64,000 nucleotides of DNA from a virus (taxonomy: Duplodnaviria > Caudoviricetes): the IMG/VR virus record IMGVR_UViG_2706796244_000001, positions 1-64,000 of that record, one strand, 5' to 3'. The notes beneath the pieces are model-generated. The model was not told the DNA's origin. It did no database searches and saw only the letters and a program-made list of their open reading frames with translations. This document shows positions 8,479 through 39,095 of this stretch, in pieces (position 1 is the stretch's first letter; each line of letters begins with the position of its first letter). Position numbers and translations under genes: made by a program.

Positions 8479-8501
8479 GGGCTCCGAAAGGAGCCCTTTC
8501 T
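8479..8501 (+). terminator. Intrinsic terminator (GAAA loop)
   Basis: GGGCTCC-GAAA-GGAGCCC-TTTCT. Confidence 0.75.
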
Positions 8502-10662: not shown

Positions 10663-10699
10663 GGCCAAACCTCGCAAGAGGTTTGGCCTTTATTTTTTA
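10663..10699 (+). terminator. Intrinsic terminator (GCAA loop)
   Basis: GGCCAAACCTC-GCAA-GAGGTTTGGCC-TTTATTTTTT. Confidence 0.9.
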
Positions 10700-11835: not shown

Positions 11836-12286
11836 CCCCTTCACCAAGGCCCGCCAGCACCTGGTGACGCTGGAGGAATCGGACCACCTGCGTTCGCTGA
11901 AGTCCCGTTCCCGTGAATGGGCCGAGGCATCTCGCCAATTGGGCTCCATCAAGAGCCTGGAGATCACTGGGGCACTGCACCGTGCACGCATGTGCGCAGG
12001 CATCGGGGAAGACCTGCTGATGCTCCGTATGGCTCAGCAGTACGTCTACAACCTCCAGGGCAACTACTTCATCTCGGCATTTCTCATCCGGGCTGGAGTG
12101 CCCCGCAAGCAGATGCTGGACCGCGGCGCCGTCCAGGTCTACCTGCACCGCTGGCTCACCCACCTGGAAGGCCAGTACCGCAGCGGGCAACTCCCTTTTG
12201 GCCGCCAGCGTCCTTCCCCCGTGGTTCGTGCCCGGCCTGTTCCTGTTCCTGTTCCTGTTCGTCTTCAACAAGGAGCTCAGCAATGA
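11819..12286 (+). CDS. Hypothetical protein with a PV-repeat tail (155 aa)
   Basis: Overlaps neighbours; C-terminal PVPVPVPV. Confidence 0.7.
   Translation: MAAASNPFTKARQHLVTLEESDHLRSLKSRSREWAEASRQLGSIKSLEITGALHRARMCAGIGEDLLMLRMAQQYVYNLQGNYFISAFLIRAGVPRKQMLDRGAVQVYLHRWLTHLEGQYRSGQLPFGRQRPSPVVRARPVPVPVPVRLQQGAQQ
12236..12259 (+). repeat. Tandem hexamer (CCTGTT)x4
   Basis: Read directly; encodes Pro-Val repeats in frame. Confidence 0.9.
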
Positions 12287-12651
12287 ATTTCCGTCCCCTC
12301 CCCAAGTACAGCAGCCAGGCGATGCTGCGTGCTGCGTGCATAGATATGCAGGCGGCGAACCAACGCACCTACAACCTGGCTGTCTACTACCGCGACCGGT
12401 TCCTTGAGCGCTCCCAACGCCCCAAGGACTGGGATGCCATCACCGGCTCCACCAAGCAGGCGGCCATCACCAGCCAAGGCATCCTCCGTGAGCGATCAGC
12501 CCAAGAGCGCTACATGCGTGGCCTGGATGAAGGCCTGGTGCTTGATGACCCGGGCCCGGCCTGCTCCGTCTGCGGTGGCCACAGCAACGTCGTGCACATG
12601 GGCGGCTCGATCCCCTATCTGTGCGACAACCCCGAGTGCATCCCTTTCTGA
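12283..12651 (+). CDS. Hypothetical protein with a C-terminal Zn finger (122 aa)
   Basis: SD AAGGAG; CSVC...CDNPEC. Confidence 0.7.
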   Translation: MNFRPLPKYSSQAMLRAACIDMQAANQRTYNLAVYYRDRFLERSQRPKDWDAITGSTKQAAITSQGILRERSAQERYMRGLDEGLVLDDPGPACSVCGGHSNVVHMGGSIPYLCDNPECIPF

Positions 12652-12667
12652 ACCAAGGAGAAAACCT

Positions 12668-12916
12668 ATGGCATTTGCCATCATGAACATCGTCCTCGCG
12701 CCGATGAAAGACTTCCCGAAGGACAGCGCTCCCCGGGACTACTACGTCCTGCGGGATATCGACGGCGAGTACGACGTGGTGCTTGCGTACCGCGACTACC
12801 AAGGCCGCTGGCGTTCCTATGACGACTGCGAGAACATTCCAGGTGAAGTCCTGGCCTGGGCCAACGTGCCGTCGCAGGAAGAGCTCAAGGAAATGCTTGC
12901 AAAGGTGCAATCCTGA
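12668..12916 (+). CDS. Hypothetical protein (82 aa)
   Basis: SD AAGGAG before ATG 12668. Confidence 0.7.
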   Translation: MAFAIMNIVLAPMKDFPKDSAPRDYYVLRDIDGEYDVVLAYRDYQGRWRSYDDCENIPGEVLAWANVPSQEELKEMLAKVQS

Positions 12917-13158
12917 TGGCCCGTGCATACGCAGTCTTCATTGCCATCCTCGTCCTGATCGTCGTGCTGTTCCAGCTGGCGATCAACGAGGTCCAGGCCA
13001 AGAAGCAATCACCTGTCATCAACCGCGTAGAACCCCGAAACCATGGCATGGAGTCCATGTGTTTCGAGGGTGTCTACGTGTTCATCAACAACCATGGCCA
13101 CATGTTCCAGCCCGTAGGCCACAAGGGCAGTGGCATCTTCTGTGAGGACCGCCCTTGA
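12916..13158 (+). CDS. Membrane-anchored protein (80 aa)
   Basis: N-terminal AYAVFIAILVLIVVLFQLAI; TGATG coupling. Confidence 0.7.
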   Translation: MARAYAVFIAILVLIVVLFQLAINEVQAKKQSPVINRVEPRNHGMESMCFEGVYVFINNHGHMFQPVGHKGSGIFCEDRP

Positions 13159-13175
13159 ACATCCGCCCCCGTCCC

Positions 13176-13307
13176 ATGAAACCCCATCTGGCGTGGGATG
13201 CCAGCCTGAAGTGCTGGCTCGTCCGCCCGAGTTCTTGTTTGGTTGGGCACTACGCAAAAGCGCTCGACTTGACCCTCACCATCAACGCTCTCAATAGGAA
13301 GCACTGA
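13176..13307 (+). CDS. 43-aa hypothetical protein (possible TTG start at 13155)
   Basis: Open frame exactly fills the 13159-13308 gap. Confidence 0.45.
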   Translation: MKPHLAWDASLKCWLVRPSSCLVGHYAKALDLTLTINALNRKH

Positions 13308-13308
13308 A

Positions 13309-13656
13309 ATGAAAAACACCCGTATCGCCGGCATCATGTCCCTGGCCGCTGGCCTTGCAGCATCCGCTGGCGCAGGCATTGCCAACTTCTTCACCGGCTC
13401 GGGCCCGACAGCCTCGCTGGTCAAGCCCGTGAAGACCGGCTCCGGTTCTCGTGCTGCCCGTTCGGCCCGCTTCCAGGCCAGCCCCGGCATCTTCAGCAGT
13501 GAATCTGCCCGTGGCATGCCCGTGGCGCCGTTCTACCAGCGTCCGCACTACGACACGCCGGCTGATCGTGCCCGCATCCAGGCGGCGCAGGACAAGCGTG
13601 ACCGCAAGGCCGCCAAGCGCCGTGCCATCCTGAACAAGCAGGGCATCCTGGCATGA
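13309..13656 (+). CDS. Basic protein with a signal-like N-terminus (115 aa)
   Basis: MKNTRIAGIMSLAAGLAASAG; R/K-rich C-terminus. Confidence 0.7.
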   Translation: MKNTRIAGIMSLAAGLAASAGAGIANFFTGSGPTASLVKPVKTGSGSRAARSARFQASPGIFSSESARGMPVAPFYQRPHYDTPADRARIQAAQDKRDRKAAKRRAILNKQGILA

Positions 13657-14381
13657 AGATCGTCGCACTCATCGGTGATCGTGGCACCGGCAAATCCCGA
13701 GCCCTGTACCACATCGCTTCTGCCACAGGTGCCTGCATCCTGACCAACAGCGATAGCGATTCAGCCAAGCTGAATGCGCTGCGCCAGCATGCTGCCTCGG
13801 GCCGTCCCATCGGCTACGTGGCAGTGCTGGACGAGGCCAGCAGTCCCTCCATCCAGTTCCTCCAGAACCTGGACGGCTACGACGAGTACACCGTCTACGT
13901 GGTGCCTGCTACCACCGCTGCCCACGACCTGCTGGGCATCGAGACCGAGGCCATGCGTGAAGAGCAGGACTCGCTGGTGCCGGCCAAGGGTGAGCCTGCC
14001 AAACCCGAGTACGTGACCGGCTACGCCGCCATGCTCATACAGCCCATCAGCTGCGATGAAGTGGCCCTGGCAAATTCCCAGCTGGAAACGGCCTACGGCA
14101 TTGACGACAGCTGGGACTTCCGTTTCAGCGTGTCGGACGATGGCTGCCTGCTCTTCGCCAAGCACACCTACAACAGCGCCAGCAACGAGATCTTCTCGGT
14201 GCTGCCTGGCGTGGAAATCCCCCGTGTGCTCACCGCCATCCAGGCCGTGACGGAATACGTCGGCGGCCACGACTTCAACGTCGTGCCGTCCAGCGTGCAG
14301 CCCATCGCCTCCACCCGTGAAAAGGTCGGCCACGTCTCGCTGGCCAACTTCTACAAGCTCTCGAAGGGCATGGACATCTGA
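13653..14381 (+). CDS. Protein with an N-terminal P-loop-like motif (242 aa)
   Basis: IVALIGDRGTGKS (Walker A-like) and VAVLDE (Walker B-like). Confidence 0.6.
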   Translation: MKIVALIGDRGTGKSRALYHIASATGACILTNSDSDSAKLNALRQHAASGRPIGYVAVLDEASSPSIQFLQNLDGYDEYTVYVVPATTAAHDLLGIETEAMREEQDSLVPAKGEPAKPEYVTGYAAMLIQPISCDEVALANSQLETAYGIDDSWDFRFSVSDDGCLLFAKHTYNSASNEIFSVLPGVEIPRVLTAIQAVTEYVGGHDFNVVPSSVQPIASTREKVGHVSLANFYKLSKGMDI

Positions 14382-14383
14382 CC

Positions 14384-15013
14384 ATGACGCATCTCCACAA
14401 CCTACACAAGCGTGGGGATGCCTTCGGGCAATCCCACGCACAACTGCTGGACTATGTGCTCCAGTTCTCCACGGCCCGTCTGCTGCCCAACGGCGCACGG
14501 TTCGCATCATCGCCCTTCCAGGACTGCTCTTTGAGCGATCTGCGCAAGGGCGATCTTGTGCTCACCATGTGCCATTCGGTGCACGACTTCCGCCTCTCCT
14601 GGTTCCTGGGAGAGACCCGTGAAAACGGGCAGGAGATCCTGCTGAAGTCCACCCGCACCGGCGAAGAAGTCTGGTGGTCCAGCATCAGCGTGGCCCGCTT
14701 CAGCAAGCCCGAAGAGATCATGGACCGCTGGCGCTGGACCAACGAGCAGCACGAATTCAACAAGCGTTGGGTGAAGGCCTGCAAAAGCGTTGACAGCTTC
14801 ATGCGTCCCCACGATCCCAAGTTCGACAAGGACACCGGCCTGGTGTACCTGGGCGTCAGCTACCGCTTCGGCATGGGCCCTGAAGGCGGCTTCTTTGACG
14901 AACTGCCTCGCGAAGGCCTGGACTGGAAAGCCCTGGTCAAGCAGGTGAAGGCCTTCAAGGCCAAATACGAAGCCTGGTGCGAACAGCGCAAGGCACACAT
15001 CACGAACCAGTAA
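14384..15013 (+). CDS. Hypothetical protein (209 aa)
   Basis: Long ORF with coding-like codon bias. Confidence 0.75.
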   Translation: MTHLHNLHKRGDAFGQSHAQLLDYVLQFSTARLLPNGARFASSPFQDCSLSDLRKGDLVLTMCHSVHDFRLSWFLGETRENGQEILLKSTRTGEEVWWSSISVARFSKPEEIMDRWRWTNEQHEFNKRWVKACKSVDSFMRPHDPKFDKDTGLVYLGVSYRFGMGPEGGFFDELPREGLDWKALVKQVKAFKAKYEAWCEQRKAHITNQ

Positions 15014-15023
15014 GGAAAAACCA

Positions 15024-16103
15024 GTGTCCAAGAATCCCACCGCCAATGCGTATGCGGTCACACCCCGAACGGCCATCCAACAGATCCAGCTTGTGCTGGC
15101 AGGTGGCCGTGTCCCCTATCTCCGTGGCTCGCCGGGTATCGGCAAGAGCGCAATCGTTCGCAAGATTGCGGCCATGGCCAACCTCCTGATCATCGACCAC
15201 CGCCTGTCCACCAGTGCGCCCGAAGATCTCTCCGGCCTGCCCCGCTTCGATGCGGACGGCAAGGCTCGCTTCAGCCCGTTCGCTGACCTGTTCCCGCTGG
15301 AAGGTCAGGCGCTGCCCGTCAACCCGGCGACAGGCCGGCAATACAGCGGCTGGCTGCTCTTCCTGGACGAGTTCAACTCGGCTTCCAAGGATGTGCAGGC
15401 GGCAGCGTACAAGCTGATCCTGGACCGCATGGTCGGCCAGCACCGCATCCACCCGGACTGCTACATGGTGGCAGCCGGCAACAAGGACACCGACCGTGCC
15501 ATCACCAACCCGATGAGCACGGCCATGCAGTCCCGGGTGGTCCACCTGTTCCTGGAGTTCAACTTCAAGGAATGGATGGAAGACGTGGTGGTCAGCCAGA
15601 AGTGGCACCCCACGGTGCGTGCATTCCTGGAGCAGGCCGGCACTGCTGCCGCCTACGACTTCAACCCATCGAACCAGGAAGCCACGTACTGCTGCCCCCG
15701 AACCTGGGAGTTCATGAGCGACTTCATGTACCAGATCGAAGACCTGGCTTCGGCCAAGGAATTCACGCCCACGTTCGCAGGCACCATCAGCGCCAACATC
15801 GCCGTGCAGTTCGTCACGTTCACAGGCAACTTCCTGAACTTGCCGTCGTTCTCCGAGATCCTGAAGGATCCGAAGAATGCACCGATCCCGTCGTCGGCTG
15901 GTGAGCAGTACGCCATCATTTCCATGGCCTCCATCAGGGCCAACAAGGATGAGTTCGACGCACTCATGGAATACGCCATGCGGTTCCAAGTCACCTTCCA
16001 ACTGATGTTCTTCCGTTCGAGTCGCCTGACGTACCCGGACGCCCGCCGCCACAAGTCCTTCATGGATGCGGCTGTCAAACTGGACCAGTACCTCCATGAC
16101 TGA
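15024..16103 (+). CDS. MoxR/dynein-related AAA+ ATPase (N4 gp24-like)
   Basis: Walker A GSPGIGKS, Walker B LLFLDEFN, AAGN and MQSR (Arg finger), PRTW. Confidence 0.88.
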   Translation: MSKNPTANAYAVTPRTAIQQIQLVLAGGRVPYLRGSPGIGKSAIVRKIAAMANLLIIDHRLSTSAPEDLSGLPRFDADGKARFSPFADLFPLEGQALPVNPATGRQYSGWLLFLDEFNSASKDVQAAAYKLILDRMVGQHRIHPDCYMVAAGNKDTDRAITNPMSTAMQSRVVHLFLEFNFKEWMEDVVVSQKWHPTVRAFLEQAGTAAAYDFNPSNQEATYCCPRTWEFMSDFMYQIEDLASAKEFTPTFAGTISANIAVQFVTFTGNFLNLPSFSEILKDPKNAPIPSSAGEQYAIISMASIRANKDEFDALMEYAMRFQVTFQLMFFRSSRLTYPDARRHKSFMDAAVKLDQYLHD

Positions 16104-16479
16104 AGCACGAGCAATCACCCATCTCATCCGCATCACGGATGACTGGCAGGAAACCTCTGTTGGCGCCAGCCTGCGCATGAGCGTGGAACGCTTCCGCATC
16201 CTGCGCCGCACTCCAAAGGGATGCTGGATCGAAGCCAATGGCCGCAAGGCTGAACGCTTTGTGCTGGACGGCAACGGTAAGCGCTTCGCCTACCCCACGC
16301 TGGAGTTGGCCATGGACAGCTACCGCATCCGCAAGCGCCGCCAGATCCAGTATCTGGCTGCCCAGCTGGAGCGTGCCGAAGGCTACGGCAAGATGGCCGA
16401 GGCCACCAAGCAGGGCATGAAGATCGTGCCCGGCGTCTTCGGCCTCGAATGGGTCGAACCAGTGGAGAAGGAGCAGTGA
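16096..16479 (+). CDS. Hypothetical protein (127 aa)
   Basis: Overlaps the ATPase stop; GTGA overlap downstream. Confidence 0.7.
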   Translation: MTEARAITHLIRITDDWQETSVGASLRMSVERFRILRRTPKGCWIEANGRKAERFVLDGNGKRFAYPTLELAMDSYRIRKRRQIQYLAAQLERAEGYGKMAEATKQGMKIVPGVFGLEWVEPVEKEQ

Positions 16480-16754
16480 GTACCAATCCCTATGCCCAGT
16501 ACACCGGCAGCGGGGATTGCGATGGCAGCGTGCAGCATAACGCTGTGCCTGCCAGCAAGGTGCCCGCATTCGTCACCCTGCTGAACGGCCTGGCCTTGCG
16601 GTTGGGCTCGGTCAACAAGGCCTGCAACGTGATCAAGGTGCCCATCACCCGGTGGAACCAGATCGCCGCAGGTGATCTCCCGCTGACGGACCTGATTGCC
16701 CGGCGCATCCTGGCGGCGCACAAGGCCCACAAGCACCTGAAGCCCAAGCGGTAA
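16476..16754 (+). CDS. Small basic protein, possibly HTH (92 aa)
   Basis: SD AAGGAG, GTG start; SVNKACNVIKVPITRWNQI resembles an HTH. Confidence 0.55.
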   Translation: MSTNPYAQYTGSGDCDGSVQHNAVPASKVPAFVTLLNGLALRLGSVNKACNVIKVPITRWNQIAAGDLPLTDLIARRILAAHKAHKHLKPKR

Positions 16755-16764
16755 GGAGAACCCC

Positions 16765-17982
16765 ATGGACACGAAACCACCTGTCGAGCCGGCAGTCATT
16801 GCCGACCTGAGCACGTTGGATCCGAACATGCTCCAGCGCTCGCTGGACATTGCAAAGACCGCGGCTTTCCTGGGGAAGACTGGCGCCTTCCTGGGCACGA
16901 TCCTATGCGCTACGCCATGGATCTGGTCCAAGGAACTGGACACCGCAGGCACTGATGCCTACAGCATCGTCTGCGATCCCCACTGGTGGCTGAAGCTGCC
17001 CAAGGCCACCCAGGCATTCATCCTGCTGCATGAGATCTGGCACATCGCTGCGCTGCACAGGCTGCGCAGAGGCCACCGACACCACCGGGTCTGGAACATC
17101 GCCTGCGATATCTGGATCAACAACCGGCTGCGCAAGGACGGGTACACCAACGTCGGCTTCGACGGATGGTTCCGTGCCGGCCTGCCGGACGAGATGACCG
17201 AAGAGGAAATCTACGATCTCCTGATGGAGGAAGCCGGCCACGACCCGGACCACAACTTCAAGGATTCGCCTTGGGGTCTGGTCAACGTGCCCAACAAAGG
17301 CCCGACCGATGTGGGTGATCTGATCCCTCCTGTCGAGGAAGAGGAAGACGATGCGGGGATCATCCACCGAGTCGTCAGCGGCATCGTTGCCCAGCAGACC
17401 ATGAGCTCGGCAGCCAACCTGCCCCCGGCCATCGAGAAGCTGGTGAACACCTGGTTGAAGCCTGTGGTGCCGTGGGAAAGCGCACTCCAGCGCTGGCTCA
17501 CTGAATTGCAGGAGAGCGGCCACACCTGGCGCCGGCCCAACCGTCGGTACTCCGACATGTACCTTCCGTCCCGCACGGAAGAGGATGGCAAGCTGCGGAA
17601 TATCCGCGCCTACATCGACGTGTCGGGTTCGATTGACGCCGCTCAGGCCACCCGCTTCTTCAGCGAGATGCGCTTCGTGAAGGACTGGTTCAAACCGGAC
17701 ACCCTCACGCTGGTGCAGTTCGATGACAACATCCGCTGCGAGGACGTGATCGGCCCCGACCAGACCATCGAGAAGATCGAACTGGTAGGCCGGGGTGGCA
17801 CCGACCTCGAACCAGTTAGGAAGGATATCGAAGAGCACCGCCCGAGCGCCGTCATCATCTTCACCGATGGTGGCTGCAATCTCATGGCAGAGCTTTCCTG
17901 GGATTGCCCGCTGATCTGGATCATCATCCGGGGCCCACACCACCAGCCGATCCAGGGCAAAACCTTCCACATCATGAACTAG
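16765..17982 (+). CDS. Zincin-like metallopeptidase plus vWA domain protein (N4 gp25-like)
   Basis: HEIWH (HExxH), MIDAS IDVSGS, GRGGT, IFTDG. Confidence 0.88.
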   Translation: MDTKPPVEPAVIADLSTLDPNMLQRSLDIAKTAAFLGKTGAFLGTILCATPWIWSKELDTAGTDAYSIVCDPHWWLKLPKATQAFILLHEIWHIAALHRLRRGHRHHRVWNIACDIWINNRLRKDGYTNVGFDGWFRAGLPDEMTEEEIYDLLMEEAGHDPDHNFKDSPWGLVNVPNKGPTDVGDLIPPVEEEEDDAGIIHRVVSGIVAQQTMSSAANLPPAIEKLVNTWLKPVVPWESALQRWLTELQESGHTWRRPNRRYSDMYLPSRTEEDGKLRNIRAYIDVSGSIDAAQATRFFSEMRFVKDWFKPDTLTLVQFDDNIRCEDVIGPDQTIEKIELVGRGGTDLEPVRKDIEEHRPSAVIIFTDGGCNLMAELSWDCPLIWIIIRGPHHQPIQGKTFHIMN

Positions 17983-17991
17983 GAGAGCTCA

Positions 17992-18504
17992 TTGATCATC
18001 AACCGCCAGTTCCTCCGTCGTCTGCGTCCCATCATCGGGATGCTGACCGGCAAGACACAGGCCCATGGCGTGAGCCACGGCCTCAGTGAGGCAGGCTACG
18101 ACATTCGCATCGCAGAGAACGTGCTGCATGTCCCCATGCTGGGGCTGCTGCCGTTCACCCTGCGGTGGGGTGGCGCCGGCCTGCCGTCGATCCGTATGGG
18201 TCGATTCATGCTCGCCAGTGCCATGGAAGAGTTCGACATGCATCCGTCCCTTGTGGGCGTAGTGCACGACAAGTCTTCCTGGGCCCGCCGCTGCATGACC
18301 GTCTGCAACACGGTGGCCGAGCCAGGCTGGAAAGGGTTCCTCACGCTGGAGCTCATCTTCCACTCCTGGCTCATCCCCGTGTTCGTCCGTCAGGGCTCGG
18401 GCATTGCCCAAGTCCTATTCCATGAAGTCGCCCAACCTGCGAAGTACGCAGGCAAGTACCAAGGGCAGGAAGCCGGCCCACAGGCCGCAAGGAAATCCAA
18501 ATGA
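17992..18504 (+). CDS. dcd: dCTP deaminase
   Basis: GLSEAGYDIR, HDKSSWARR, EPGWKGFLTLEL, IAQVLF motifs. Confidence 0.88.
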   Translation: MIINRQFLRRLRPIIGMLTGKTQAHGVSHGLSEAGYDIRIAENVLHVPMLGLLPFTLRWGGAGLPSIRMGRFMLASAMEEFDMHPSLVGVVHDKSSWARRCMTVCNTVAEPGWKGFLTLELIFHSWLIPVFVRQGSGIAQVLFHEVAQPAKYAGKYQGQEAGPQAARKSK

Positions 18505-18737
18505 ATGAAGCTCTGATCGTTCTGACCGCACTGCACTCCAGCGCTGTTGTTCTGCAATTCGACGTGGCCCGCATCGGTATGGTGTGCACTGCCAGTTCCG
18601 GCCTGAAGAAGGACGGCACCGTGATCGAATACATGGTGAACGGCGATCTGCGCGTGTACCATGTCCGCGAGACCGTGACCGAAATCACCAAGCGCATGCA
18701 GGTCGCAACGCAGCAAGCCATGAGCTTGCGCCGCTAA
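18501..18737 (+). CDS. Hypothetical protein (78 aa)
   Basis: ATGA coupling to dcd. Confidence 0.7.
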   Translation: MNEALIVLTALHSSAVVLQFDVARIGMVCTASSGLKKDGTVIEYMVNGDLRVYHVRETVTEITKRMQVATQQAMSLRR

Positions 18738-18770
18738 ACGCCACAGCTGGTGTTTGGTTTGTAGACCCTG

Positions 18771-18802
18771 AATGGGCCCCAATCCGGGGCCCATTTTTTA
18801 TT
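18771..18802 (+). terminator. Intrinsic terminator
   Basis: AATGGGCCCC-AATCC-GGGGCCCATT-TTTTA. Confidence 0.85.
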
Positions 18803-18825
18803 CATCCGTTTTCCGAGAGGAACCC

Positions 18826-19200
18826 ATGAGCCAATATTTCACCGTCAATGCCATCGTCAAGGTTCAGGCTTGGGATGGCAAAGCCCGCTTCAGCGACCGT
18901 GTGCTGTTCCATGAACGCATGGTTCGCACCTACGAATACCTGAGCATTGCCGCCAAGGCAGAGCTCGCTGGCCTTCTGCGTCAGCGCCTGTCCGAGACCC
19001 CGATCACTCCGGCCATCCAGCCGGATGAAGATGCCTACGTCTGCATCTTGGCTGCGGGCGAGACCTACTTCTGCCCCATCGACAAGAAACCCATAGTCCT
19101 TCTCCACTGGTTCAAGGCTGTGCGCCTGGGCGGCAAGACGGCTGCCCACGAGCTCAGCGTCCACTGGCGCGGCCAGGGCACATCGAGCGACGGGAGCTGA
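18826..19200 (+). CDS. Hypothetical protein (124 aa)
   Basis: SD GAGGA before ATG 18826. Confidence 0.7.
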   Translation: MSQYFTVNAIVKVQAWDGKARFSDRVLFHERMVRTYEYLSIAAKAELAGLLRQRLSETPITPAIQPDEDAYVCILAAGETYFCPIDKKPIVLLHWFKAVRLGGKTAAHELSVHWRGQGTSSDGS

Positions 19201-19202
19201 CC

Positions 19203-19625
19203 ATGGACCTGACGCACGACGACATTCTCAGCGCCACTATGAAGCTGGACACCAACCAGAAGGTGCAGGACTTCGCTGAACTGGAGAAGCGCTTGGTAGC
19301 TTTCATGATGGCCTCGAAGGCCAACGGCAAGGCCTACGACTTCGTGGTCTGGAAGTCCCCCACCGAGTGTGTGGGCTACAGCATTCAGAACGGCGAGATG
19401 CACGCAGTCACCATGTCTGAGCATGAGGTGAAGGGCAAGAATCACCGCCTACTCATCGTGGATGATCTGGTGCACGAGTCCATTGTCACCATGCAGCGTG
19501 GACAGTCCAAGAATCGCATGCTGACCGATTTGCTGGCCCAGGCCGCCATCGCCATGAGCTCCCAGATTGACCCTCCGAAGAAGGGCAAGACCCTTCCCTG
19601 GTTCCACGGAAAGCGGAGGTTCTGA
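19203..19625 (+). CDS. Hypothetical protein (140 aa)
   Basis: SD GGAG; tightly packed with neighbours. Confidence 0.7.
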   Translation: MDLTHDDILSATMKLDTNQKVQDFAELEKRLVAFMMASKANGKAYDFVVWKSPTECVGYSIQNGEMHAVTMSEHEVKGKNHRLLIVDDLVHESIVTMQRGQSKNRMLTDLLAQAAIAMSSQIDPPKKGKTLPWFHGKRRF

Positions 19626-19626
19626 C

Positions 19627-20136
19627 ATGCGCTGCTACGTCTGCCAACGCTCTGTGCGTGACTTGGTGGAGATCCCCACGGATATCCCCGGAGAGATCTG
19701 CGTGGAGGCCCGCTGCCACGGTGAGCGCCGCCAGTACCGTTTCGGCATCTCCTTCCTGCGTGAGATGGAAGCCAAGGGCCAGAAGCCTGACAACTTCGTG
19801 GCCTTCGGGCCTACCCGCCGCAAGGAAGATCCCCGGCCAAAGACTGAACCAGCGAAGGGGAATCCCGTCGATACCTTGCTGGACCTGTACCGCCCTGGGT
19901 GGCGCAATGGGCCCGGCGATACACCAAGTCGCCGCCTCCAGGCTGTCAAGGGTGCTCTGGCCGCCCAGCGTGTGATGCTCCAGTGTGCCTCTGCTGTGCA
20001 GATGCAGAACGGGGTGCTGCGCTCTGTGCTGGACCAGCTGAAAGCTGCCGGCCTGGAGAACGAGTACGCCCGCAAGGTGGCCGACCAGCTGCATGCGGAA
20101 TTTGCAACCGTCCCTAATGGAGAAATTACCGAATGA
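19627..20136 (+). CDS. Hypothetical protein with an N-terminal Cys motif (169 aa)
   Basis: SD GGAGG; CYVC...C..RCH. Confidence 0.7.
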   Translation: MRCYVCQRSVRDLVEIPTDIPGEICVEARCHGERRQYRFGISFLREMEAKGQKPDNFVAFGPTRRKEDPRPKTEPAKGNPVDTLLDLYRPGWRNGPGDTPSRRLQAVKGALAAQRVMLQCASAVQMQNGVLRSVLDQLKAAGLENEYARKVADQLHAEFATVPNGEITE

Positions 20137-20498
20137 GCTTCTTCGAGACCCTGGGCCGGGCCATTGCCTGGCTGTTCAAGTGGCTGATCATCGCGGCCAT
20201 CTGCGCAGCACTACCCACCTGCATGTACTTCACTGAGTTCAGCGAAGGTGCGCAGGAACGCAAGGCCCAAGAGGCTGAGCAGATTAAGCGCGACAAGCTG
20301 CCCCGCTACGTCAACGACAGCGGTGGCTGCGAGGTCTGGGCCTTCAAGCCCAACGACCGCTGGCTCTACTTCACGAAGTGCGGCTCCGCCCGCACCGAGA
20401 CGAAGAACACCTGGGAAGAATGCCGCCAGAGCGGCAAGACCCGGACTTGTACCAACCAAGAGATGGCGATAGCCTCTCATCCCAAGGAGAAACCGTGA
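20133..20498 (+). CDS. Membrane-anchored protein with a Cys-containing exported domain (121 aa)
   Basis: TM segment AIAWLFKWLIIAAICAALP; four C-terminal Cys. Confidence 0.7.
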   Translation: MSFFETLGRAIAWLFKWLIIAAICAALPTCMYFTEFSEGAQERKAQEAEQIKRDKLPRYVNDSGGCEVWAFKPNDRWLYFTKCGSARTETKNTWEECRQSGKTRTCTNQEMAIASHPKEKP

Positions 20499-20842
20499 GC
20501 GAACGCCCCACCTACTGCCCGGAATGCGCCATGCCGCAATTCGAGACCCCGAGTGGCATGACCTGTGCCAACGGCCACGGCGGCCTGCAAGGTGTCGAGG
20601 TCGAGAACGACAACCTGGTGGCGCTACTGAAGCGCCTGCACCCGGCACACATCCAGCATGCTGTGTCCTTGAACTGGTGCTGCTCCCCGCCGCCTGCTGA
20701 CGTGCACTCTGCCGTCATGACCTCGTTGCACGTCCTGGGCTACAAGGATCTGACCCGACAAGATGCCAAGGTATTGGCGTACTGGTGGCTGGGTCAGACA
20801 GCCTTGGGTCCGCTGATCCAGAACCAGAAGGAAGAAGGCTGA
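20495..20842 (+). CDS. Zn-finger protein (115 aa)
   Basis: SD AAGGAG, GTG start; CPEC...CANGH. Confidence 0.65.
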   Translation: MSERPTYCPECAMPQFETPSGMTCANGHGGLQGVEVENDNLVALLKRLHPAHIQHAVSLNWCCSPPPADVHSAVMTSLHVLGYKDLTRQDAKVLAYWWLGQTALGPLIQNQKEEG

Positions 20843-21063
20843 TGCAGAAGGCAGGCACCCGGTGCCGTCACGATGGCGCCAAGCTGCGGGTCATTGCTAC
20901 CGAAACTGGTGATGGCCTGCCGATCATGGTCTACCGCATACGAGAATGTCCCGTATGCAAGGACCGCACCGTAACCGTGGAGATCCCCTACAGCGGGGAT
21001 TTCCCATACTCGAAAGTGAAGGCGCTGGCCGCCTCACGCAGAAAGGATGACGATGAGCAATAG
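20842..21063 (+). CDS. Zn-ribbon protein resembling the NrdR N-terminal ribbon (73 aa)
   Basis: CRHDGAKLRVIATE...RIRECPVCKDRTVTVE. Confidence 0.55.
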   Translation: MQKAGTRCRHDGAKLRVIATETGDGLPIMVYRIRECPVCKDRTVTVEIPYSGDFPYSKVKALAASRRKDDDEQ

Positions 21064-22000
21064 CGAAACCGCCCACAACAACATGAAGCCCTACATGGAT
21101 CTGCTCCACCAGATCTACTACCAGGGCGAGGGCAAGTCTGACCGCACTGGCACAGGCACCAAGTCCGTATTCGGTGCCCAGATGGAATTCGATCTGCGTG
21201 AGGGCTTCCCCCTGCTCCAGAAGAAGACCACCCCCTTCACCACGATCTTCACCGAGCTCTCGTGGATGATGCAGGGCCTGACCAATGTGAACTGGCTACA
21301 GCAAAAGGGCTGCCACATCTGGGACGAATGGGCTGGTCCTGATGGCGGCCTCGGCCCGATCTATGGTGCCCAGTGGCGCAGCATCCAAGGCCCCGATGGA
21401 AAGAACATCGACCAGCTGGCCAAGGCACAAGAGCTGCTGCTGAACGACCCGGACAGCCGCCGCATCATCGTGAATGCCTGGAACGTGGCCGAGCTCGACC
21501 AGATGGCCCTGACACCGTGCCATGCGATGTTCCAGTTCTGGACCCGCAAGCTGACGCTCACCGAGCGCATCAACCTGGCGCCGATCCCCGAATACCAGCG
21601 CAATGTCTGGTTCTCGGGCCTGGCCTCGGACACCCTCCATGAGAAGCTGGCGCTGCTGTCCGTGCCGGAGCGTGCCCTGAGCTGCAAACTCTATCAGCGC
21701 AGCGCTGACATGTTCCTGGGCGTGCCCTTCAACATCGCCAGCTACGCGCTGCTGACGCACCTCATGGCGGCCACGGTCGGCATGCAGGCCGAGAAGTTCA
21801 TCTGGTCTGGCGGTGACTGCCACCTGTACTCGAACCACATGGACCAGGCCAAGCAGCTGATGGACCGTCCAACGGTCATCGGCAACCCGCACCTGTTCGT
21901 CATCCGTGCACGCGAGTTCGTGGCCGACTACAAGCGCGAAGACTTCGAGCTCATAGGCTACAAGCCTGCGGGGGTGATCTCCGCTCCCGTTGCCGTGTAG
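21047..22000 (+). CDS. thyA: Thymidylate synthase (ThyA type)
   Basis: DRTGTGT, DSRR, ALTPCH, YQRSADMFLGVPFNIASY, GDCHLYSNH. Confidence 0.95.
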   Translation: MTMSNSETAHNNMKPYMDLLHQIYYQGEGKSDRTGTGTKSVFGAQMEFDLREGFPLLQKKTTPFTTIFTELSWMMQGLTNVNWLQQKGCHIWDEWAGPDGGLGPIYGAQWRSIQGPDGKNIDQLAKAQELLLNDPDSRRIIVNAWNVAELDQMALTPCHAMFQFWTRKLTLTERINLAPIPEYQRNVWFSGLASDTLHEKLALLSVPERALSCKLYQRSADMFLGVPFNIASYALLTHLMAATVGMQAEKFIWSGGDCHLYSNHMDQAKQLMDRPTVIGNPHLFVIRAREFVADYKREDFELIGYKPAGVISAPVAV

Positions 22001-22240
22001 CGTTTTTGTGGTTGTGGCCCGGTGAGCATCTGAGATGCATCGGGCACTAGGCTGACAACCACCGGCCAGCGTTTGCGAAAGCAGCGCTGGCCACCTTTCG
22101 ACAGAGCACTGTCGTGGGAATGCTGGAGCCAAACTCTAGACCTATCCTGTGGCTCGGGAGAAGTCCAAGGGGCCAGTTTCCCTACGAGAGTGCTCTTTAA
22201 AGAGGCAGTACACTAGAGTTTTCTTAGGAGAACTCTATGG
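22001..22240 (+). promoter_or_regulatory. Highly structured intergenic leader with several hairpins and a sequestered RBS
   Basis: Hairpins at 22017-22045, 22064-22092, 22099-22114, 22126-22155 and 22214-22237; the last covers SD AGGAG and the A of ATG 22237. Confidence 0.6.
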
Positions 22241-22551
22241 CTGCACAACGCTCTTCCCGAAAGGCATCCGACGAGGATTTGATCCGACTGAACTCCATGG
22301 GCCTGTCCCTGGGGACCATCGGGCGAATGCTCGGCGTACACCCAACAACCGTCACCATCCGGCTGCAAAACCTGGGCATCCGAGTGGCGGACACCCGGCG
22401 CACCTTCATGGAAGACGTGCTCGGGACTCTCCCTCCAGCGACATGTGATTGGGTGGCCGATCAACTCGGCCCTCACCACAGCATCGCTGATTTCATCCGC
22501 AATCTCCTGACCGAAGCCTATGTGCGACGGAACCAGAAAGGAAACCCGTGA
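22237..22551 (+). CDS. HTH DNA-binding protein of a type seen in N4-like phages (104 aa)
   Basis: GLSLGTIGRMLGVHPTTVTIRL helix-turn-helix. Confidence 0.75.
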   Translation: MAAQRSSRKASDEDLIRLNSMGLSLGTIGRMLGVHPTTVTIRLQNLGIRVADTRRTFMEDVLGTLPPATCDWVADQLGPHHSIADFIRNLLTEAYVRRNQKGNP

Positions 22552-22955
22552 AAGCTGTCCTTCTCGCCCTCGTGGCTGCACTGTCCCTGGGCGCCTGCAA
22601 AGACGATGCCACCGTGGCGTCGGCCAACCTGTCCAAGGCCGCCGACAACTTCGAGATCAATCGCCGCATCGTCTTCTTCAACGGCATCACCGACAGCTAC
22701 CTGCTGTCGATTGAAGGCCGCTGCTCCTTCGTGGTCGAGTCGGCCCAGAAGGTTGCTGTGACCTGCAAGCTGGGCCGCGATCAGTACAAGAAGCACACCC
22801 TCGGCCTGTCCGACAACGTGAGCTTCTTCAGCGAGCAGCTGGACTCAGCCGACGTGTCGGTCTACCACTACCGCGTCACCTTCAAGCCGCAGTCCATCAT
22901 CCGCGATATTGACTTTCGCGGCTCGACCACGGACCTCCCCCGCAACCAACCCTGA
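22548..22955 (+). CDS. Predicted lipoprotein (135 aa)
   Basis: Signal peptide II MKAVLLALVAALSLGA-C; NFEINRRIVFFNGIT motif of a widespread phage lipoprotein family. Confidence 0.75.
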   Translation: MKAVLLALVAALSLGACKDDATVASANLSKAADNFEINRRIVFFNGITDSYLLSIEGRCSFVVESAQKVAVTCKLGRDQYKKHTLGLSDNVSFFSEQLDSADVSVYHYRVTFKPQSIIRDIDFRGSTTDLPRNQP

Positions 22956-22973
22956 ACCAGAAGGAAACTCTCA

Positions 22974-23567
22974 ATGAGCGAAGCTCCCATCATCGGTGTC
23001 AACTACGCCGAATTCGTCAAGTCCCGTTTCAAGACAGGCATCGCCACTGCCGACGACATTGCCAACAAGGTGGTGCCTTCCCAGCTGGCTCGTCTGCATG
23101 CAGCCATGGGCCTGCTGGGCGAAACCATCGAAGCCTGGTGGAGCGACAGCCGCGAAAACCTCGAAGAGGAACTCGGCGACCTGGTGTTCTTCCACGAAGC
23201 CATGGGCCAGTGCTTGTGGCCGCAATTCCAGCCCGGCGTTGGCCTGGGCACGTTGATCACTCCACCACCTGGTGGTGCCGAAAGCATCGACGTGTGCTGG
23301 TGCAACATGGTCAAGCTGGCCAATGTGATGCACGATCTGTCCAAGAAGGAGACGATCTACGCCAAGGAATTGGACGCAGACCAGACAGGCACGTATGCCA
23401 GCGCCTACAACGCTTTCGCCGTGTACCTGGACCGTCAGATCGGCAACTTCGGCTTCACCCTCCAAGGCCTGCGTGACAGCAACATCGCCAAGCTGACCAA
23501 GCGCTACAAGACCGGCTACAGCAACAAAGCTGCCGCCGAACGTGCCGACAAGCCGGCTGGCGAATAA
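22974..23567 (+). CDS. MazG-like NTP pyrophosphohydrolase
   Basis: LHAAMGLLGETIE, EEELGDLVF, NIAKLTKRY. Confidence 0.8.
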   Translation: MSEAPIIGVNYAEFVKSRFKTGIATADDIANKVVPSQLARLHAAMGLLGETIEAWWSDSRENLEEELGDLVFFHEAMGQCLWPQFQPGVGLGTLITPPPGGAESIDVCWCNMVKLANVMHDLSKKETIYAKELDADQTGTYASAYNAFAVYLDRQIGNFGFTLQGLRDSNIAKLTKRYKTGYSNKAAAERADKPAGE

Positions 23568-23588
23568 TCCAACCTCCCTCATCAACCT

Positions 23589-23615
23589 GGCCCCACTTCG
23601 GTGGGGTTTCTTTTT
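23589..23615 (+). terminator. Intrinsic terminator (UUCG loop)
   Basis: GCCCCAC-TTCG-GTGGGGT-TTCTTTTT. Confidence 0.8.
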
Positions 23616-23622
23616 GCCTCAA

Positions 23623-24933
23623 ATGACTCAGCAAAAATTCCCCCCGAACGAGGGCCAAGCCAAGGCCATCGAAGATTTCTTCAAGTTCATGCTCGACCCC
23701 TACGCCAAGCGCCACATCCTGTCTGGCCCTGGCGGCGTCGGCAAGACCTTCACCATGGGCGAGATGATCGACACGGTGATCCCCCGCTACATGGAAATGT
23801 GTCAGCTGCTGGGCCTGCCCATCGAGTACGACAACGTGGTGATGACGGCCACCACCAACAAGGCGGTGGAAGCACTGTCCAAGGCCACTGGCCGCCCGGC
23901 CAAGACCATCCAGTCGTTCCTGTGCCTGCGGCCCAAGGAGAACTACCAGACCGGAGAGATGGACCTGATCCGCACTCCCGGCTGGATGGAGCATGACCGT
24001 CTGGTGATCTTCATTGATGAATGCTCCATGATCGACCGCAACCTGTTTGACGAGATCGAAGCGGCCACGGCCCGCTGCAAGGTGGTCTATGTCGGCGATC
24101 ATGTGCAGCTGCCGCCTGTCAAGGAAACGCTGTCCAAGATCTACAGCCAGAAGTACGGCATGAGCGAGCTCACGCAGCCCATGCGGACTGATGTGCCCGA
24201 GCTCCAGGCGTTGAACGAACAGTTCCGCCAGGTGGTGCTGACCGGCGTGCACACGGATATCAAGATCGTCCCTGGCATCATCGACTGGATGGGCGAGGAC
24301 GAGGCCATGGATGAGATCGACCGTGCCTTCACCAACGGCAACAGGGAAGACCGCATCCTCTGCTACAGCAACCCCCAGGTGATGGCCATCAACGACTACA
24401 TCCGCAGCCTGCGCCAGCTGCCTGCGGAGTTCGTGGTTGGCGAGACCCTGGTATCGAACTCGGCCTACCAGAACAGCAAGAAGAAGGACGCTCCCCGCAT
24501 CAGCATCGAAGACGAGCTCGTCGTGCTGGAGGCAGGCAGCATTGTCCAAAGCGAGCTGTACGAGGATGATATCGCCATCGAATTCCGGGACTATGTGATG
24601 GAGACGCCCTACGGTGAACGCATCAACGTGCCTCAGCCGGTGGACCGCGACTACTTCAACCAGTGCCTGGCCTACTACAAGGGCAAGAAGAACTGGCGGG
24701 TTTTCTACAAGCTGAAGGAGACCTACCCGGATCTGCGCCAGCGTGATGCAGCCACGGTCCACAAGTCGCAGGGTTCCTCGTACACCACATCCTATGTGGA
24801 CCTGGGCAACATCTCGACCTGCCATCTCCCCGGCATGGCCGCTCGCCTGATGTACGTGGCATTCAGCCGTGCCCGCAAACGTGTCGTCCTGTTCGGCGAC
24901 CTGCACCCGAAATTCGGAAAGCTCATCTTCTAA
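23623..24933 (+). CDS. SF1 (Dda/RecD-like) DNA helicase (N4 gp37-like)
   Basis: GPGGVGKT, IFIDECSMI, GDHVQLPPV, TVHKSQGS, YVAFSRAR. Confidence 0.92.
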   Translation: MTQQKFPPNEGQAKAIEDFFKFMLDPYAKRHILSGPGGVGKTFTMGEMIDTVIPRYMEMCQLLGLPIEYDNVVMTATTNKAVEALSKATGRPAKTIQSFLCLRPKENYQTGEMDLIRTPGWMEHDRLVIFIDECSMIDRNLFDEIEAATARCKVVYVGDHVQLPPVKETLSKIYSQKYGMSELTQPMRTDVPELQALNEQFRQVVLTGVHTDIKIVPGIIDWMGEDEAMDEIDRAFTNGNREDRILCYSNPQVMAINDYIRSLRQLPAEFVVGETLVSNSAYQNSKKKDAPRISIEDELVVLEAGSIVQSELYEDDIAIEFRDYVMETPYGERINVPQPVDRDYFNQCLAYYKGKKNWRVFYKLKETYPDLRQRDAATVHKSQGSSYTTSYVDLGNISTCHLPGMAARLMYVAFSRARKRVVLFGDLHPKFGKLIF

Positions 24934-32615: not shown

Positions 32616-32649
32616 GGGCCTGGAGCCTTTGTTTGGTTTCAGGCCCTTT
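32616..32649 (+). other. Hairpin (12-bp stem) between primase and ATPase genes
   Basis: GGGCCTGGAGCC-TTTGTTT-GGTTTCAGGCCC-TTT. Confidence 0.5.
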
Positions 32650-32672
32650 GGCCTGCTTTGAGGAAGGAAAAA

Positions 32673-35359: not shown

Positions 35360-35544
35360 TGGATGGCGGGACGATCCTGATACTGATCGTCCTGGGCATT
35401 GCCGCGTGGATGCTCATCACGCAGGCCATCGTCGTGATCGCCCCCTACATTGCAGGGGGCGTCATCATCCTGGCGGTCGGGGGGTTCGTGTGGTTTGCCA
35501 GCCGAACCCAGCGCAATGAGCAAAACGAAGAAGGCCCCGAATAG
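35359..35544 (+). CDS. Small two-TM membrane protein (61 aa)
   Basis: Two hydrophobic stretches; TGATG coupling. Confidence 0.7.
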   Translation: MDGGTILILIVLGIAAWMLITQAIVVIAPYIAGGVIILAVGGFVWFASRTQRNEQNEEGPE

Positions 35545-35555
35545 GGGCCTTTTTT
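35532..35555 (+). terminator. Intrinsic terminator
   Basis: AGGCCCC-GAATA-GGGGCCT-TTTTT. Confidence 0.8.
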
Positions 35556-39060: not shown

Positions 39061-39095
39061 AAAAAGGCCCCTCAATGAGGGGCCTTTTTTATTTT
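39061..39095. terminator. Bidirectional terminator between converging middle and late units
   Basis: AAAAAGGCCCCTC-AAT-GAGGGGCCTTTTTT. Confidence 0.92.

What the first reader, a model, noticed from the sequence alone, without database searches (positions are those of the whole stretch)
22001..22240. Hairpin-packed 236-nt leader with a switch-like RBS-sequestering pseudoknot
Seen: five hairpins in the largest gap of the middle region. The last (TAGAGTTTTC 22214-22223 with GAGAACTCTA 22228-22237) hides the SD and start of the HTH gene. Its 5' arm CTAGAGTTT (22213-22221) is also perfectly complementary to AAACTCTAG (22131-22139), most of which lies in the loop of hairpin 22126-22155; pairing there would free the RBS. 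A second long-range pair, AGAGCACT (22103-22110) with AGTGCTCT (22189-22196), competes with hairpin 22099-22114 and crosses the first pair. Inference: an undescribed cis-regulatory RNA or riboswitch-like element (thyA is immediately upstream). Alternative: an ssDNA hairpin cluster, since it contains GCGAAAGC (22075-22082), the stable mini-hairpin known from the phage G4 origin.
Basis: partly seen in the sequence, partly recalled or inferred. Interest (0 to 1): 0.75.

Follow-up and report, generated by a model that had tools for sequence, protein, structure and literature searches.

The report
Conserved folded RNA leader, N4-like phage

Summary
The gap folds far better than shuffled sequence (z -5.8), and so do three independently diverged relatives (z -4.1 to -6.0).

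I found the element only in three lineages of uncultured N4-like phages. Across them it keeps four modules:
- two hairpins just after thyA;
- a ~94-nt domain at 22103-22196, a 22-bp stalk capped by an H-type pseudoknot;
- a hairpin that buries the SD and AUG.

Nine base pairs keep pairing through changes on both sides, against 0-2 in slid controls. That includes 3 of 5 pairs of a pseudoknot stem that was not part of the search model.

There is no Rfam match, no tRNA and no conserved ORF.

The proposed switch helix (22131-39 with 22213-21) is perfect only in the window's own cluster. It has a C·A mismatch in both diverged lineages, shows no covariation, and costs about 16 kcal/mol when forced. 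Position 22135 covaries with 22170 instead.

GCGAAAGC occurs at chance frequency and reads GCGAGAGC in 9 of 11 relatives.

In 59 other N4-like phages, N4 apparently included, the same gene (labelled gp35 in one N4-like record) follows a single hairpin plus U-run that also pairs the SD.

Best reading: a new cis-acting translational-control leader whose release mechanism is unknown. The scan had already noted this same stretch, read from another window (e1-5897308).

The parts
21047..22000 (+). thyA (thymidylate synthase), the upstream gene. It is context, not part of the RNA element.
   Evidence: PF00303 on the homologous gene in relatives. Homologues were found. The stop codon is at 21998-22000.
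22008..22062 (+). Hairpin 1: a long, imperfect stem-loop directly after the thyA stop codon.
   Evidence: Present in the folds of the window, L109 and L211. In L102 the sequence is replaced by an unrelated one that again forms a hairpin at the same place. It has no U-run.
22064..22092 (+). Hairpin 2: a G+C-rich 12-bp stem with one bulge and a GNRA tetraloop at 22077-80. No U-run follows it.
   Evidence: The outer stem differs in L102, L109 and L211 but stays complementary. The loop is GAAA in the window, L212 and L213 and GAGA in 9 other relatives.
22103..22196 (+). Central domain. The stalk has three helices: P1 22103-10 / 22189-96, P2 22112-20 / 22178-87 and P3 22122-26 / 22173-77. It encloses a pseudoknotted head.
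   Evidence: Recovered independently in the MFE folds of the window, L102, L109 and L211. Five stalk pairs keep pairing through changes on both sides.
22127..22154 (+). Pseudoknot stem S1, 22127-31 with 22150-54.
   Evidence: It has three sequence versions in three lineages, all complementary. Three of 5 pairs are compensatory and 100% of cells are paired. The stem was not in the covariance model, so this test is independent of the model-fitted alignment.
22134..22171 (+). Pseudoknot stem S2, 22134-41 with 22163-71. It crosses S1. The loops 22142-49 and 22155-62 are well conserved.
   Evidence: Pair 22135:22170 occurs as U·G, U-A and C-G. Pair 22136:22169 occurs as C-G and U-A. The columns 22145-49 and 22155-59, which lie in these loops, vary less than the stems do: 2 of 10 against 25 of 58.
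22131..22139 (+).
   Evidence: Perfect in the window's cluster only. C at 22135 in L109 and L211 gives a mismatch. The same bases are paired inside the domain.
22205..22244 (+). Extended RBS stem-loop. The core is 22214-23 / 22228-37 and the outer pairs are 22205-12 / 22238-44. It buries the SD (22226-30) and the AUG (22237-39).
   Evidence: dG is -20.7 kcal/mol. SD bases 22228-30 have an unpaired probability of 0.003 or less. The core is almost invariant across the three lineages: 1 variable column of 24. Outer pairs change A-U to G·U and U·G to U-A. It is the second least accessible of 59 gene starts in this genome.
22237..22551 (+). Downstream gene: a 104-aa helical protein labelled gp35 in one N4-like phage record, probably with a helix-turn-helix.
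   Evidence: phrog_6377, E 4e-51. The Pfam HTH_38 match is below its cut-off. It was found in 158 phage records, one of which labels it gp35. The AF2 model has pLDDT 81 and gives only weak fold matches to HTH regulators.

Best explanation
The gap is transcribed with the + strand genes. It forms a conserved cis-acting RNA leader of the gene labelled gp35 in an N4-like phage record.

Two hairpins close the thyA message. A 22-bp stalk capped by an H-type pseudoknot follows. After a 17-nt linker, a very stable stem-loop holds the SD and AUG in double-stranded form.

Shown:
- the fold and its conservation through compensatory change;
- strand specificity;
- absence of coding;
- burial of the ribosome-binding site;
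- the same gene has its SD paired by an upstream hairpin in most other N4-like phages.

Inferred:
- The leader keeps translation of this gene low on read-through transcripts.
- Relief needs something beyond the naked RNA. One candidate is a factor (protein or small molecule) acting on the pseudoknot domain or the invariant RBS hairpin. Another is a transcript that starts inside the hairpin, as in T4 late genes.
For: Fold significance:
- z is -5.8 for the window, -5.95 for L109, -4.1 for L102 and -4.3 for L211.
- All four give the same four-module architecture when folded on their own.

Covariation:
- 6 pairs changed on both sides in a MAFFT alignment of 7 sequences.
- 9 pairs (13 cells) in 13 distinct sequences, against 0-2 in slid controls and 0 of 500 shuffles.
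- Pseudoknot stem S1 was not in the model and has 3 of 5 compensatory pairs.

Strand:
- The + strand fold is -116.9 kcal/mol against -101.2 for the complement.
- For the RBS hairpin the values are -20.7 against -11.6.
- The structure contains several G·U pairs.

No conserved ORF: frames, starts and ends differ among relatives.

RBS burial. It ranks 2nd of 59 gene starts for inaccessibility.

Sequence invariance: the RBS hairpin has 1 variable column of 24. The relatives' proteins are 79% (gp35-like) and 56% (ThyA) identical.

Family context:
- 59 unique N4-like loci have one hairpin plus U-run plus SD before this gene.
- The sense strand is the more stable in 50 of 59 (p 2e-8).
- Median SD unpaired probability is 0.25, and 86% of loci are below 0.5.
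Against: - There are no expression data. The transcription start, read-through and translation are all inferred.
- Only three lineages exist, so each covarying pair rests on one or two events, too few for R-scape-type statistics.
- The alignment was fitted to the nested part of the structure.
- In L109 the complement strand folds slightly better than the sense strand (-114.1 against -111.6 kcal/mol).
- The core RBS hairpin never varies, so covariation says nothing about it. Two variants in relatives weaken it: T22236C in several and a G at 22219 in L106.
- A -21 kcal/mol RBS structure on a widely conserved gene demands an opening mechanism, and I could not identify one.
Confidence: 0.55

Rival explanations
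1. A metabolite-sensing riboswitch. The pseudoknot domain would be an aptamer. Ligand binding would decide whether 22131-39 pairs inside the domain or with 22213-21, and so close or open the RBS.
For: - The three-way arrangement is real: 22131-39, 22213-23 and 22228-37 can pair alternately, and 22131-39 is engaged inside a covarying domain.
- A 9-mer complement to the anti-SD arm within about 100 nt is unlikely by chance, roughly 1 in 1000 by my estimate.
- The columns 22145-49 and 22155-59, inside the pseudoknot loops, vary less than the stems do: 2 of 10 against 25 of 58.
Against: - No Rfam class matches, even at E up to 10.
- The switch helix has a mismatch in 2 of 3 lineages and no covariation.
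- The open state is about 16 kcal/mol worse in nested folding, and by my estimate about 20 kcal/mol worse if the stalk is kept. That is far from the balance a thermodynamic switch needs.
- The element was found in only one narrow phage clade and before only one gene of unknown function.
Confidence: 0.1
2. A passive boundary between transcription units. The hairpins and the stalk would be partial terminators, barriers to 3' exonucleases, or RNase III/E processing sites that separate the thyA message from the replication-gene message. There would be no regulated switching.
For: - Hairpins 1 and 2 sit directly after the thyA stop and keep their structure while their sequence changes.
- The stalk is an irregular 22-bp duplex. 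From my own knowledge, that is the size RNase III recognises.
- 'Hairpin, U-run, SD, ATG' modules recur in this genome at 8479, 10663, 23591, 32640 and 35531.
- The same module stands before this gene in other N4-like phages.
Against: - Hairpins 1 and 2 lack the U-run that this phage's other terminators have.
- A mere barrier does not explain the covarying pseudoknot head, the conserved loops, or the near-invariant RBS hairpin.
Confidence: 0.2
3. DNA-level hairpins. Either hairpin 2 is a hairpin-type middle promoter of the kind reported for the Pseudomonas N4-like phage LUZ7, or the cluster is a single-strand origin as in phage G4.
For: - LUZ7 middle promoters are described as G+C-rich hairpins with a stem of at least 6 bp and a 3-4 nt loop, about 15 bp upstream of a G start (PMC9163698).
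- Hairpin 2 has that shape. It covaries and is followed by a conserved linker just before the stalk begins.
Against: - GCGAAAGC is at chance frequency and is replaced in 9 of 11 relatives.
- The folds contain G·U pairs and the sense strand is favoured in the window, L102 and L103.
- A GNRA loop is an RNA signature.
- No similar hairpin motif recurs at other gene starts of this genome.
- Most of the covariation lies in the domain downstream of hairpin 2, which a promoter does not explain.
Confidence: 0.07
4. The central domain is a stand-alone small RNA that acts in trans and is released from the transcript. It would not be a leader.
For: - The domain is self-contained and closed by its own long stalk.
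- Small RNAs from intergenic regions are reported for LUZ7 (PMC9163698).
Against: - I found no promoter or terminator flanking the domain.
- It always lies about 17 nt from the RBS hairpin of the same gene.
- There is no second copy in the genome.
Confidence: 0.05

Closest known systems
T4-type translational control by an RBS-sequestering hairpin (T4 lysozyme gene e, soc, I-TevI).
   Same: A stable hairpin buries the SD and AUG of a phage gene on read-through transcripts from upstream genes.
   Different: In T4, relief comes from a late promoter inside the hairpin. No promoter was found here. This leader also carries a large pseudoknot domain that the T4 cases lack.
Protein-binding translational operators with pseudoknots: the T4 gene 32 leader pseudoknot, and the E. 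coli rpsO (S15) and alpha-operon (S4) leaders. Cited from my own knowledge.
   Same: An H-type pseudoknot in the 5' leader of a gene whose product binds nucleic acid. The primary sequence near the RBS is conserved.
   Different: No binding protein is known here. The pseudoknot is about 40 nt from the RBS and sits on a 22-bp stalk. No sequence or Rfam similarity was found.
Translational OFF riboswitches with an aptamer, an anti-sequestor and a sequestor.
   Same: The layout is the same: a folded domain holds a segment that could otherwise pair with the anti-SD strand.
   Different: The two states are not balanced in energy. The alternative helix is not conserved. No ligand or class is known, and the element has a very narrow distribution.
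The single hairpin plus U-run that stands before the gp35-like gene in other N4-like phages.
   Same: It stands at the same position before the same gene, and the SD is mostly paired. The 3' arm, U-run and SD of the window (22213-30) resemble those of the widespread version.
   Different: The others have one hairpin of 10-14 bp in a 55-100 nt gap after an rIIB-like gene. The window has 236 nt after thyA, with an extra pseudoknot domain. The covariance model finds that domain in none of the 80 viral-collection N4-like loci (L126-L205) nor in the other gp35-bearing loci searched outside the clade.

Membership tests
Any described RNA family (Rfam 15) | Covariance-model match at the gathering score, or at least a weak match | tested here: not met
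   No match in the whole window at the gathering score. None in 21900-22350 at E up to 10. None in the relatives L109 and L102 at E up to 1. No tRNA or tmRNA.
Riboswitch | A conserved structured domain supported by covariation | tested here: met
   Nine pairs changed on both sides, against 0-2 in slid controls. The pseudoknot stem is supported independently of the model.
Riboswitch | An expression platform with two mutually exclusive pairings that are conserved and comparable in energy | tested here: not met
   The alternative helix has a mismatch in 2 of 3 lineages and no covariation. The forced state is 15.6 kcal/mol worse.
Riboswitch | Specific binding of a small ligand | not testable with these tools
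   This needs in-line probing, ITC or structure probing with candidate ligands.
Intrinsic (rho-independent) terminator | A G+C-rich hairpin followed directly by a U-run | tested here: not met
   Hairpins 1 and 2 have no U-run. The scan's only + strand hit at the gap is a weak 6-bp stem across the thyA stop codon. The phage's other terminators have clear T-runs.
Hairpin-type promoters of N4-like phages (N4 early, LUZ7 middle) | A short G+C-rich DNA hairpin with a 3-4 nt loop, about 11-15 bp upstream of a mapped start | tested here: inconclusive
   Hairpin 2 has the shape described in PMC9163698 and covaries. No start site is known, and no shared motif was seen at other genes.
G4-origin-type ssDNA mini-hairpin | The octamer GCGAAAGC, conserved and more frequent than chance | tested here: not met
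   Three copies against 2.6 expected. It reads GCGAGAGC in 9 of 11 relatives.
FourU-type RNA thermometer | A U-run pairs with the SD in a hairpin that melts in the physiological temperature range | tested here: not met
   Four U do pair with the SD region, but the extended hairpin is still -18.4 kcal/mol at 42 °C.
Translational operator hairpin (protein-bound RBS hairpin) | A hairpin that contains the SD or AUG and whose primary sequence is conserved | tested here: met
   The SD and AUG lie inside the hairpin. One variable column of 24 across three lineages.
Translational operator hairpin (protein-bound RBS hairpin) | A cognate RNA-binding protein | not testable with these tools
   The downstream protein is only weakly HTH-like. 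No binding data exist.
Small protein-coding gene | An ORF whose frame, start and stop are conserved in relatives | tested here: not met
   The ORFs in the gap differ in frame, start and end between the window, the close relatives and L109.

The most novel reading that the evidence does not exclude
The pseudoknot-capped domain is a new phage-borne sensor RNA, responding to a small molecule or a phage protein. It gates translation of the gp35-like regulator at the head of the replication gene cluster. If so, N4-like phages would time or tune this gene through RNA structure, and the simple hairpin seen in the rest of the family would be the minimal form of the same control.
Probability: 0.12. Interest if true: 0.8.

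Novelty: new variant of a known kind. Interest (0 to 1): 0.45.

Why it matters
It is a candidate new structured RNA motif from an uncultured phage. The evidence for the fold is good, and it includes a pseudoknot that covaries.

It also points to something broader. Across N4-like phages, N4 apparently among them, the gene labelled gp35 in an N4-like phage record starts the replication module. It is consistently preceded by an RNA hairpin that pairs its ribosome-binding site. I know of no description of that, and I did not search the literature for it. It could be tested directly in phage N4 itself, which is a laboratory phage.

The window's version is a more elaborate form of this control, and comparing the two may show how the control works.

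The specific riboswitch claim is weak, so the finding is of moderate rather than high interest.

Tried and rejected
**Searches for more copies**
- Exact-pattern scans found nothing for hairpin 2 in viral contigs.
- They found nothing for a conserved core of the domain in metagenome contigs or genome contigs.
- A 17-mer from the RBS hairpin gave four unrelated loci in viral contigs.
- A protein-seeded scan of metagenome contigs found no relative.
- ThyA has no relatives between about 100% and 54% identity. Two looked-up contexts were unrelated.
- The covariance model found the domain in none of the 80 viral-collection N4-like loci nor in the other gp35-bearing loci searched outside the clade.
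- blastn against 50,697 phage records gave no match inside the gap.

**Expression**
I therefore could not look for RNA reads or transcript ends.

**Promoters**
- No sigma-70-like site was found.
- No repeated motif in the early region could be carried over to this gap.
- No recurring hairpin motif was found at other gene starts.

**Ideas dropped**
- A leader peptide that ends at the TAG at 22214-16 and opens the hairpin by translation. Its frame is not conserved.
- Insertion of the domain into the loop of the ancestral hairpin. The domain starts upstream of the 5' arm, so its borders do not fit.
- A double-stranded operator palindrome for the family-wide hairpin. Loop and stem lengths vary, and the sense strand is favoured through G·U pairs.

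**Fold of the downstream protein**
- It gave only weak matches (E about 0.5 and above) to HTH regulators.

Full report
**What the window is**

The window is the first 64 kb of a 73.9-kb virus record with direct terminal repeats. It encodes a 3413-residue virion RNA polymerase on the minus strand. Its genes are arranged as in N4-like phages. The nearest cultured relatives are distant Pseudomonas phages.

The finding lies between thyA (21047-22000) and a 104-aa gene (22237-22551).

That gene belongs to phrog_6377, E 4e-51. It has only a sub-threshold Pfam HTH_38 match. It occurs in 158 N4-like phage records, one of which labels it gp35. An AlphaFold model (pLDDT 81) is all-helical and gives only weak matches to HTH regulators.

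**The observation**

As RNA, the gap plus the first codons folds to -118 kcal/mol, z -5.8, with no shuffle as good.

Nothing else accounts for the region:
- no Rfam family matches, even at E up to 10;
- there is no tRNA;
- there is no sigma-70-like promoter in 20500-23500; the scan's only + strand terminator-like hit at the gap is a weak 6-bp stem across the thyA stop codon.

**Relatives**

Homologues of the downstream protein led to contigs that carry the same gap. They fall into three lineages:
- the window's own cluster, 94-100% identical in the gap: L102-L104, L107, L108, L209, L210, L212, L213, and the partial L106 and L214;
- L211;
- L109.

In L109 the downstream protein is 79% identical and ThyA only 56% identical.

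L102, L109 and L211, folded on their own, each give the same four-module architecture with z of -4.1, -5.95 and -4.3. In L102 hairpin 1 is replaced by unrelated sequence that again forms a hairpin.

Conservation of the gap is as high as that of the flanking coding sequence.

No ORF in the gap keeps its frame, start or stop among relatives.

**The structure that evolution keeps**

*Hairpins after thyA.* Hairpin 1 (22008-62) and hairpin 2 (22064-92) follow thyA. Hairpin 2 changes its outer stem in L102, L109 and L211 but stays paired. It keeps a GNRA loop. Neither hairpin has a U-run.

*The central domain (22103-22196).* It is a stalk of three helices totalling 22 bp:
- 22103-10 / 22189-96;
- 22112-20 / 22178-87;
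- 22122-26 / 22173-77.

*The head of the domain.* It is best read as an H-type pseudoknot.
It has three different sequences in the three lineages, all complementary.
- Stem S2 (22134-41 / 22163-71) pairs the loop of that hairpin with downstream bases.
- Pair 22135:22170 occurs as U·G, U-A and C-G.

*Counts.* Nine pairs have changes on both sides, against 0-2 when partners are slid by 1-3 columns. No shuffle of 500 reaches the observed values. A MAFFT alignment of seven sequences had already given six such pairs.

*Caveats.*
- S1 was not in the covariance model used for the larger alignment, so its support does not depend on the model.
- A small nested hairpin (22145-49 / 22155-59) predicted by the folding programs has little support. 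By my reading of the geometry it cannot coexist fully with S1.
- There are only three lineages, so each pair rests on one or two events.

*The small hairpin 22099-22114* is not kept in L109 or L211.

**The ribosome-binding site**

The core hairpin (22214-23 / 22228-37) extends through 22205-12 / 22238-44 into a -20.7 kcal/mol stem-loop. SD bases 22228-30 have an unpaired probability of 0.003 or less.

It is the second least accessible of 59 gene starts in this genome.

Across the three lineages it has one variable column of 24. The stems of the domain vary at 43% of columns. That suggests a constraint on sequence as well as on pairing. The outer pairs change A-U to G·U and U·G to U-A.

**The proposed switch**

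The 9-mer 22131-39 is a perfect complement of 22213-21 in the window's cluster. Several results argue against a switch:
- In both L109 and L211, position 22135 is C, which gives a C·A mismatch. The partner strand never changes.
- The same bases covary with 22163-71 inside the domain.
- Forcing the helix costs 15.6 kcal/mol in nested folding.
- If the stalk is allowed to persist, a 9-bp helix of -9.4 kcal/mol still cannot outweigh a -20.7 kcal/mol stem-loop.

A self-contained, balanced two-state switch is therefore unlikely. A kinetic or factor-assisted role for this segment is not excluded.

**DNA-level readings**

GCGAAAGC occurs three times in the window against 2.6 expected. It reads GCGAGAGC in 9 of 11 relatives, and both forms give a GNRA loop.

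The sense strand folds 15.7 kcal/mol better than its complement in the window. L109 is an exception.

For the Pseudomonas N4-like phage LUZ7, middle promoters are reported as G+C-rich hairpins about 15 bp upstream of a G start (PMC9163698). Hairpin 2 has that shape, so a promoter role for it cannot be excluded. It would not explain the domain downstream.

**Family context**

A profile of the downstream protein brought in 80 N4-like loci. One of them, L151, comes from a 70,153-bp record that I take to be N4 itself, from my recollection of its genome length.

In 59 unique sequences the gene follows an rIIB-like gene after a gap of typically 55-100 nt. That gap holds one hairpin of 10-14 bp, then a U-run, then the SD.
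- The sense strand is the more stable in 50 of 59 (p 2e-8).
- The SD is mostly paired: median unpaired probability 0.25, with 86% of loci below 0.5.
- Many of these hairpins share arm sequences resembling 22134-39 and 22213-18 of the window. This is an inference.
- In three of the five whole relatives searched, that strict motif occurs once per genome; the other two lack that exact form.
- The covariance model finds the pseudoknot domain in none of these loci.

**Verdict**

This is a real, conserved, non-coding structured RNA of a kind not yet described. It was found in only a narrow clade of uncultured N4-like phages.

It most likely acts in cis, limiting or controlling translation of the gp35-like gene (confidence about 0.55). 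How the ribosome-binding site is opened is unknown.

Passive boundary or processing elements are the main rival (0.2). A true riboswitch is possible but poorly supported (0.1). DNA hairpin functions are unlikely (0.07).

Noticed in passing
L126-L205 (for example L148:1400-1500 and L151:1400-1500); window 22213-22230: In 59 unique N4-like phage sequences, N4 apparently among them, the gp35-like gene is preceded by one conserved hairpin plus U-run that pairs its SD. The arm sequence is conserved in many sub-groups. In three of the five whole relatives searched, the strict motif occurs once per genome; the other two lack that exact form. It is either a terminator that doubles as a translational block or a family-wide control element. 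I know of no description of it, and I did not search the literature for it.
   Followed up: partly
L200:1300-1510, L202:1300-1495, L183:1215-1510, L195:1240-1505: A second, unrelated conserved non-coding stretch (about 100-150 nt) lies upstream of the same gene in another group of N4-like phages. A strong hairpin with a U-run follows it. The stems covary and there is no Rfam match. It may be another structured leader.
   Followed up: partly
window 22548-22955: A 135-aa gene of the Phage_VG64 family (PF25682; phrog_478, annotated as a recombination directionality factor in mycobacteriophages) with a lipobox-like N-terminus. It is present in the window, L213 and L214 but absent from the otherwise near-identical L102-L104 and L209. 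It is about 80% identical in DNA to a gene of Pseudomonas phage Ebordelon. It looks like a recently gained or lost accessory gene.
   Followed up: partly
window 23542-23640: The longest ORF for the helicase starts at GTG 23542 (463 aa), but relatives aa. A terminator-like hairpin with a T-run at 23591-23606 lies inside the extension. The true start is probably further downstream, after the hairpin.
   Followed up: no
window 8479-8496, 10663-10688, 18771-18795, 32640-32655, 35531-35551, 39061-39089: This genome has recurrent 'hairpin with a stable tetraloop, T-run, SD, ATG' modules between + strand genes, and a bidirectional terminator at the switch of strands.
   Followed up: no
window 12000-22000: This phage seems to lack the rIIA/rIIB-like genes that precede the gp35-like gene in most N4-like relatives. 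A set of small genes and thyA stands there instead.
   Followed up: no
L163:1260-1486: One N4-like relative has a 55-aa ORF inserted between the rIIB-like gene and the conserved hairpin.
   Followed up: no
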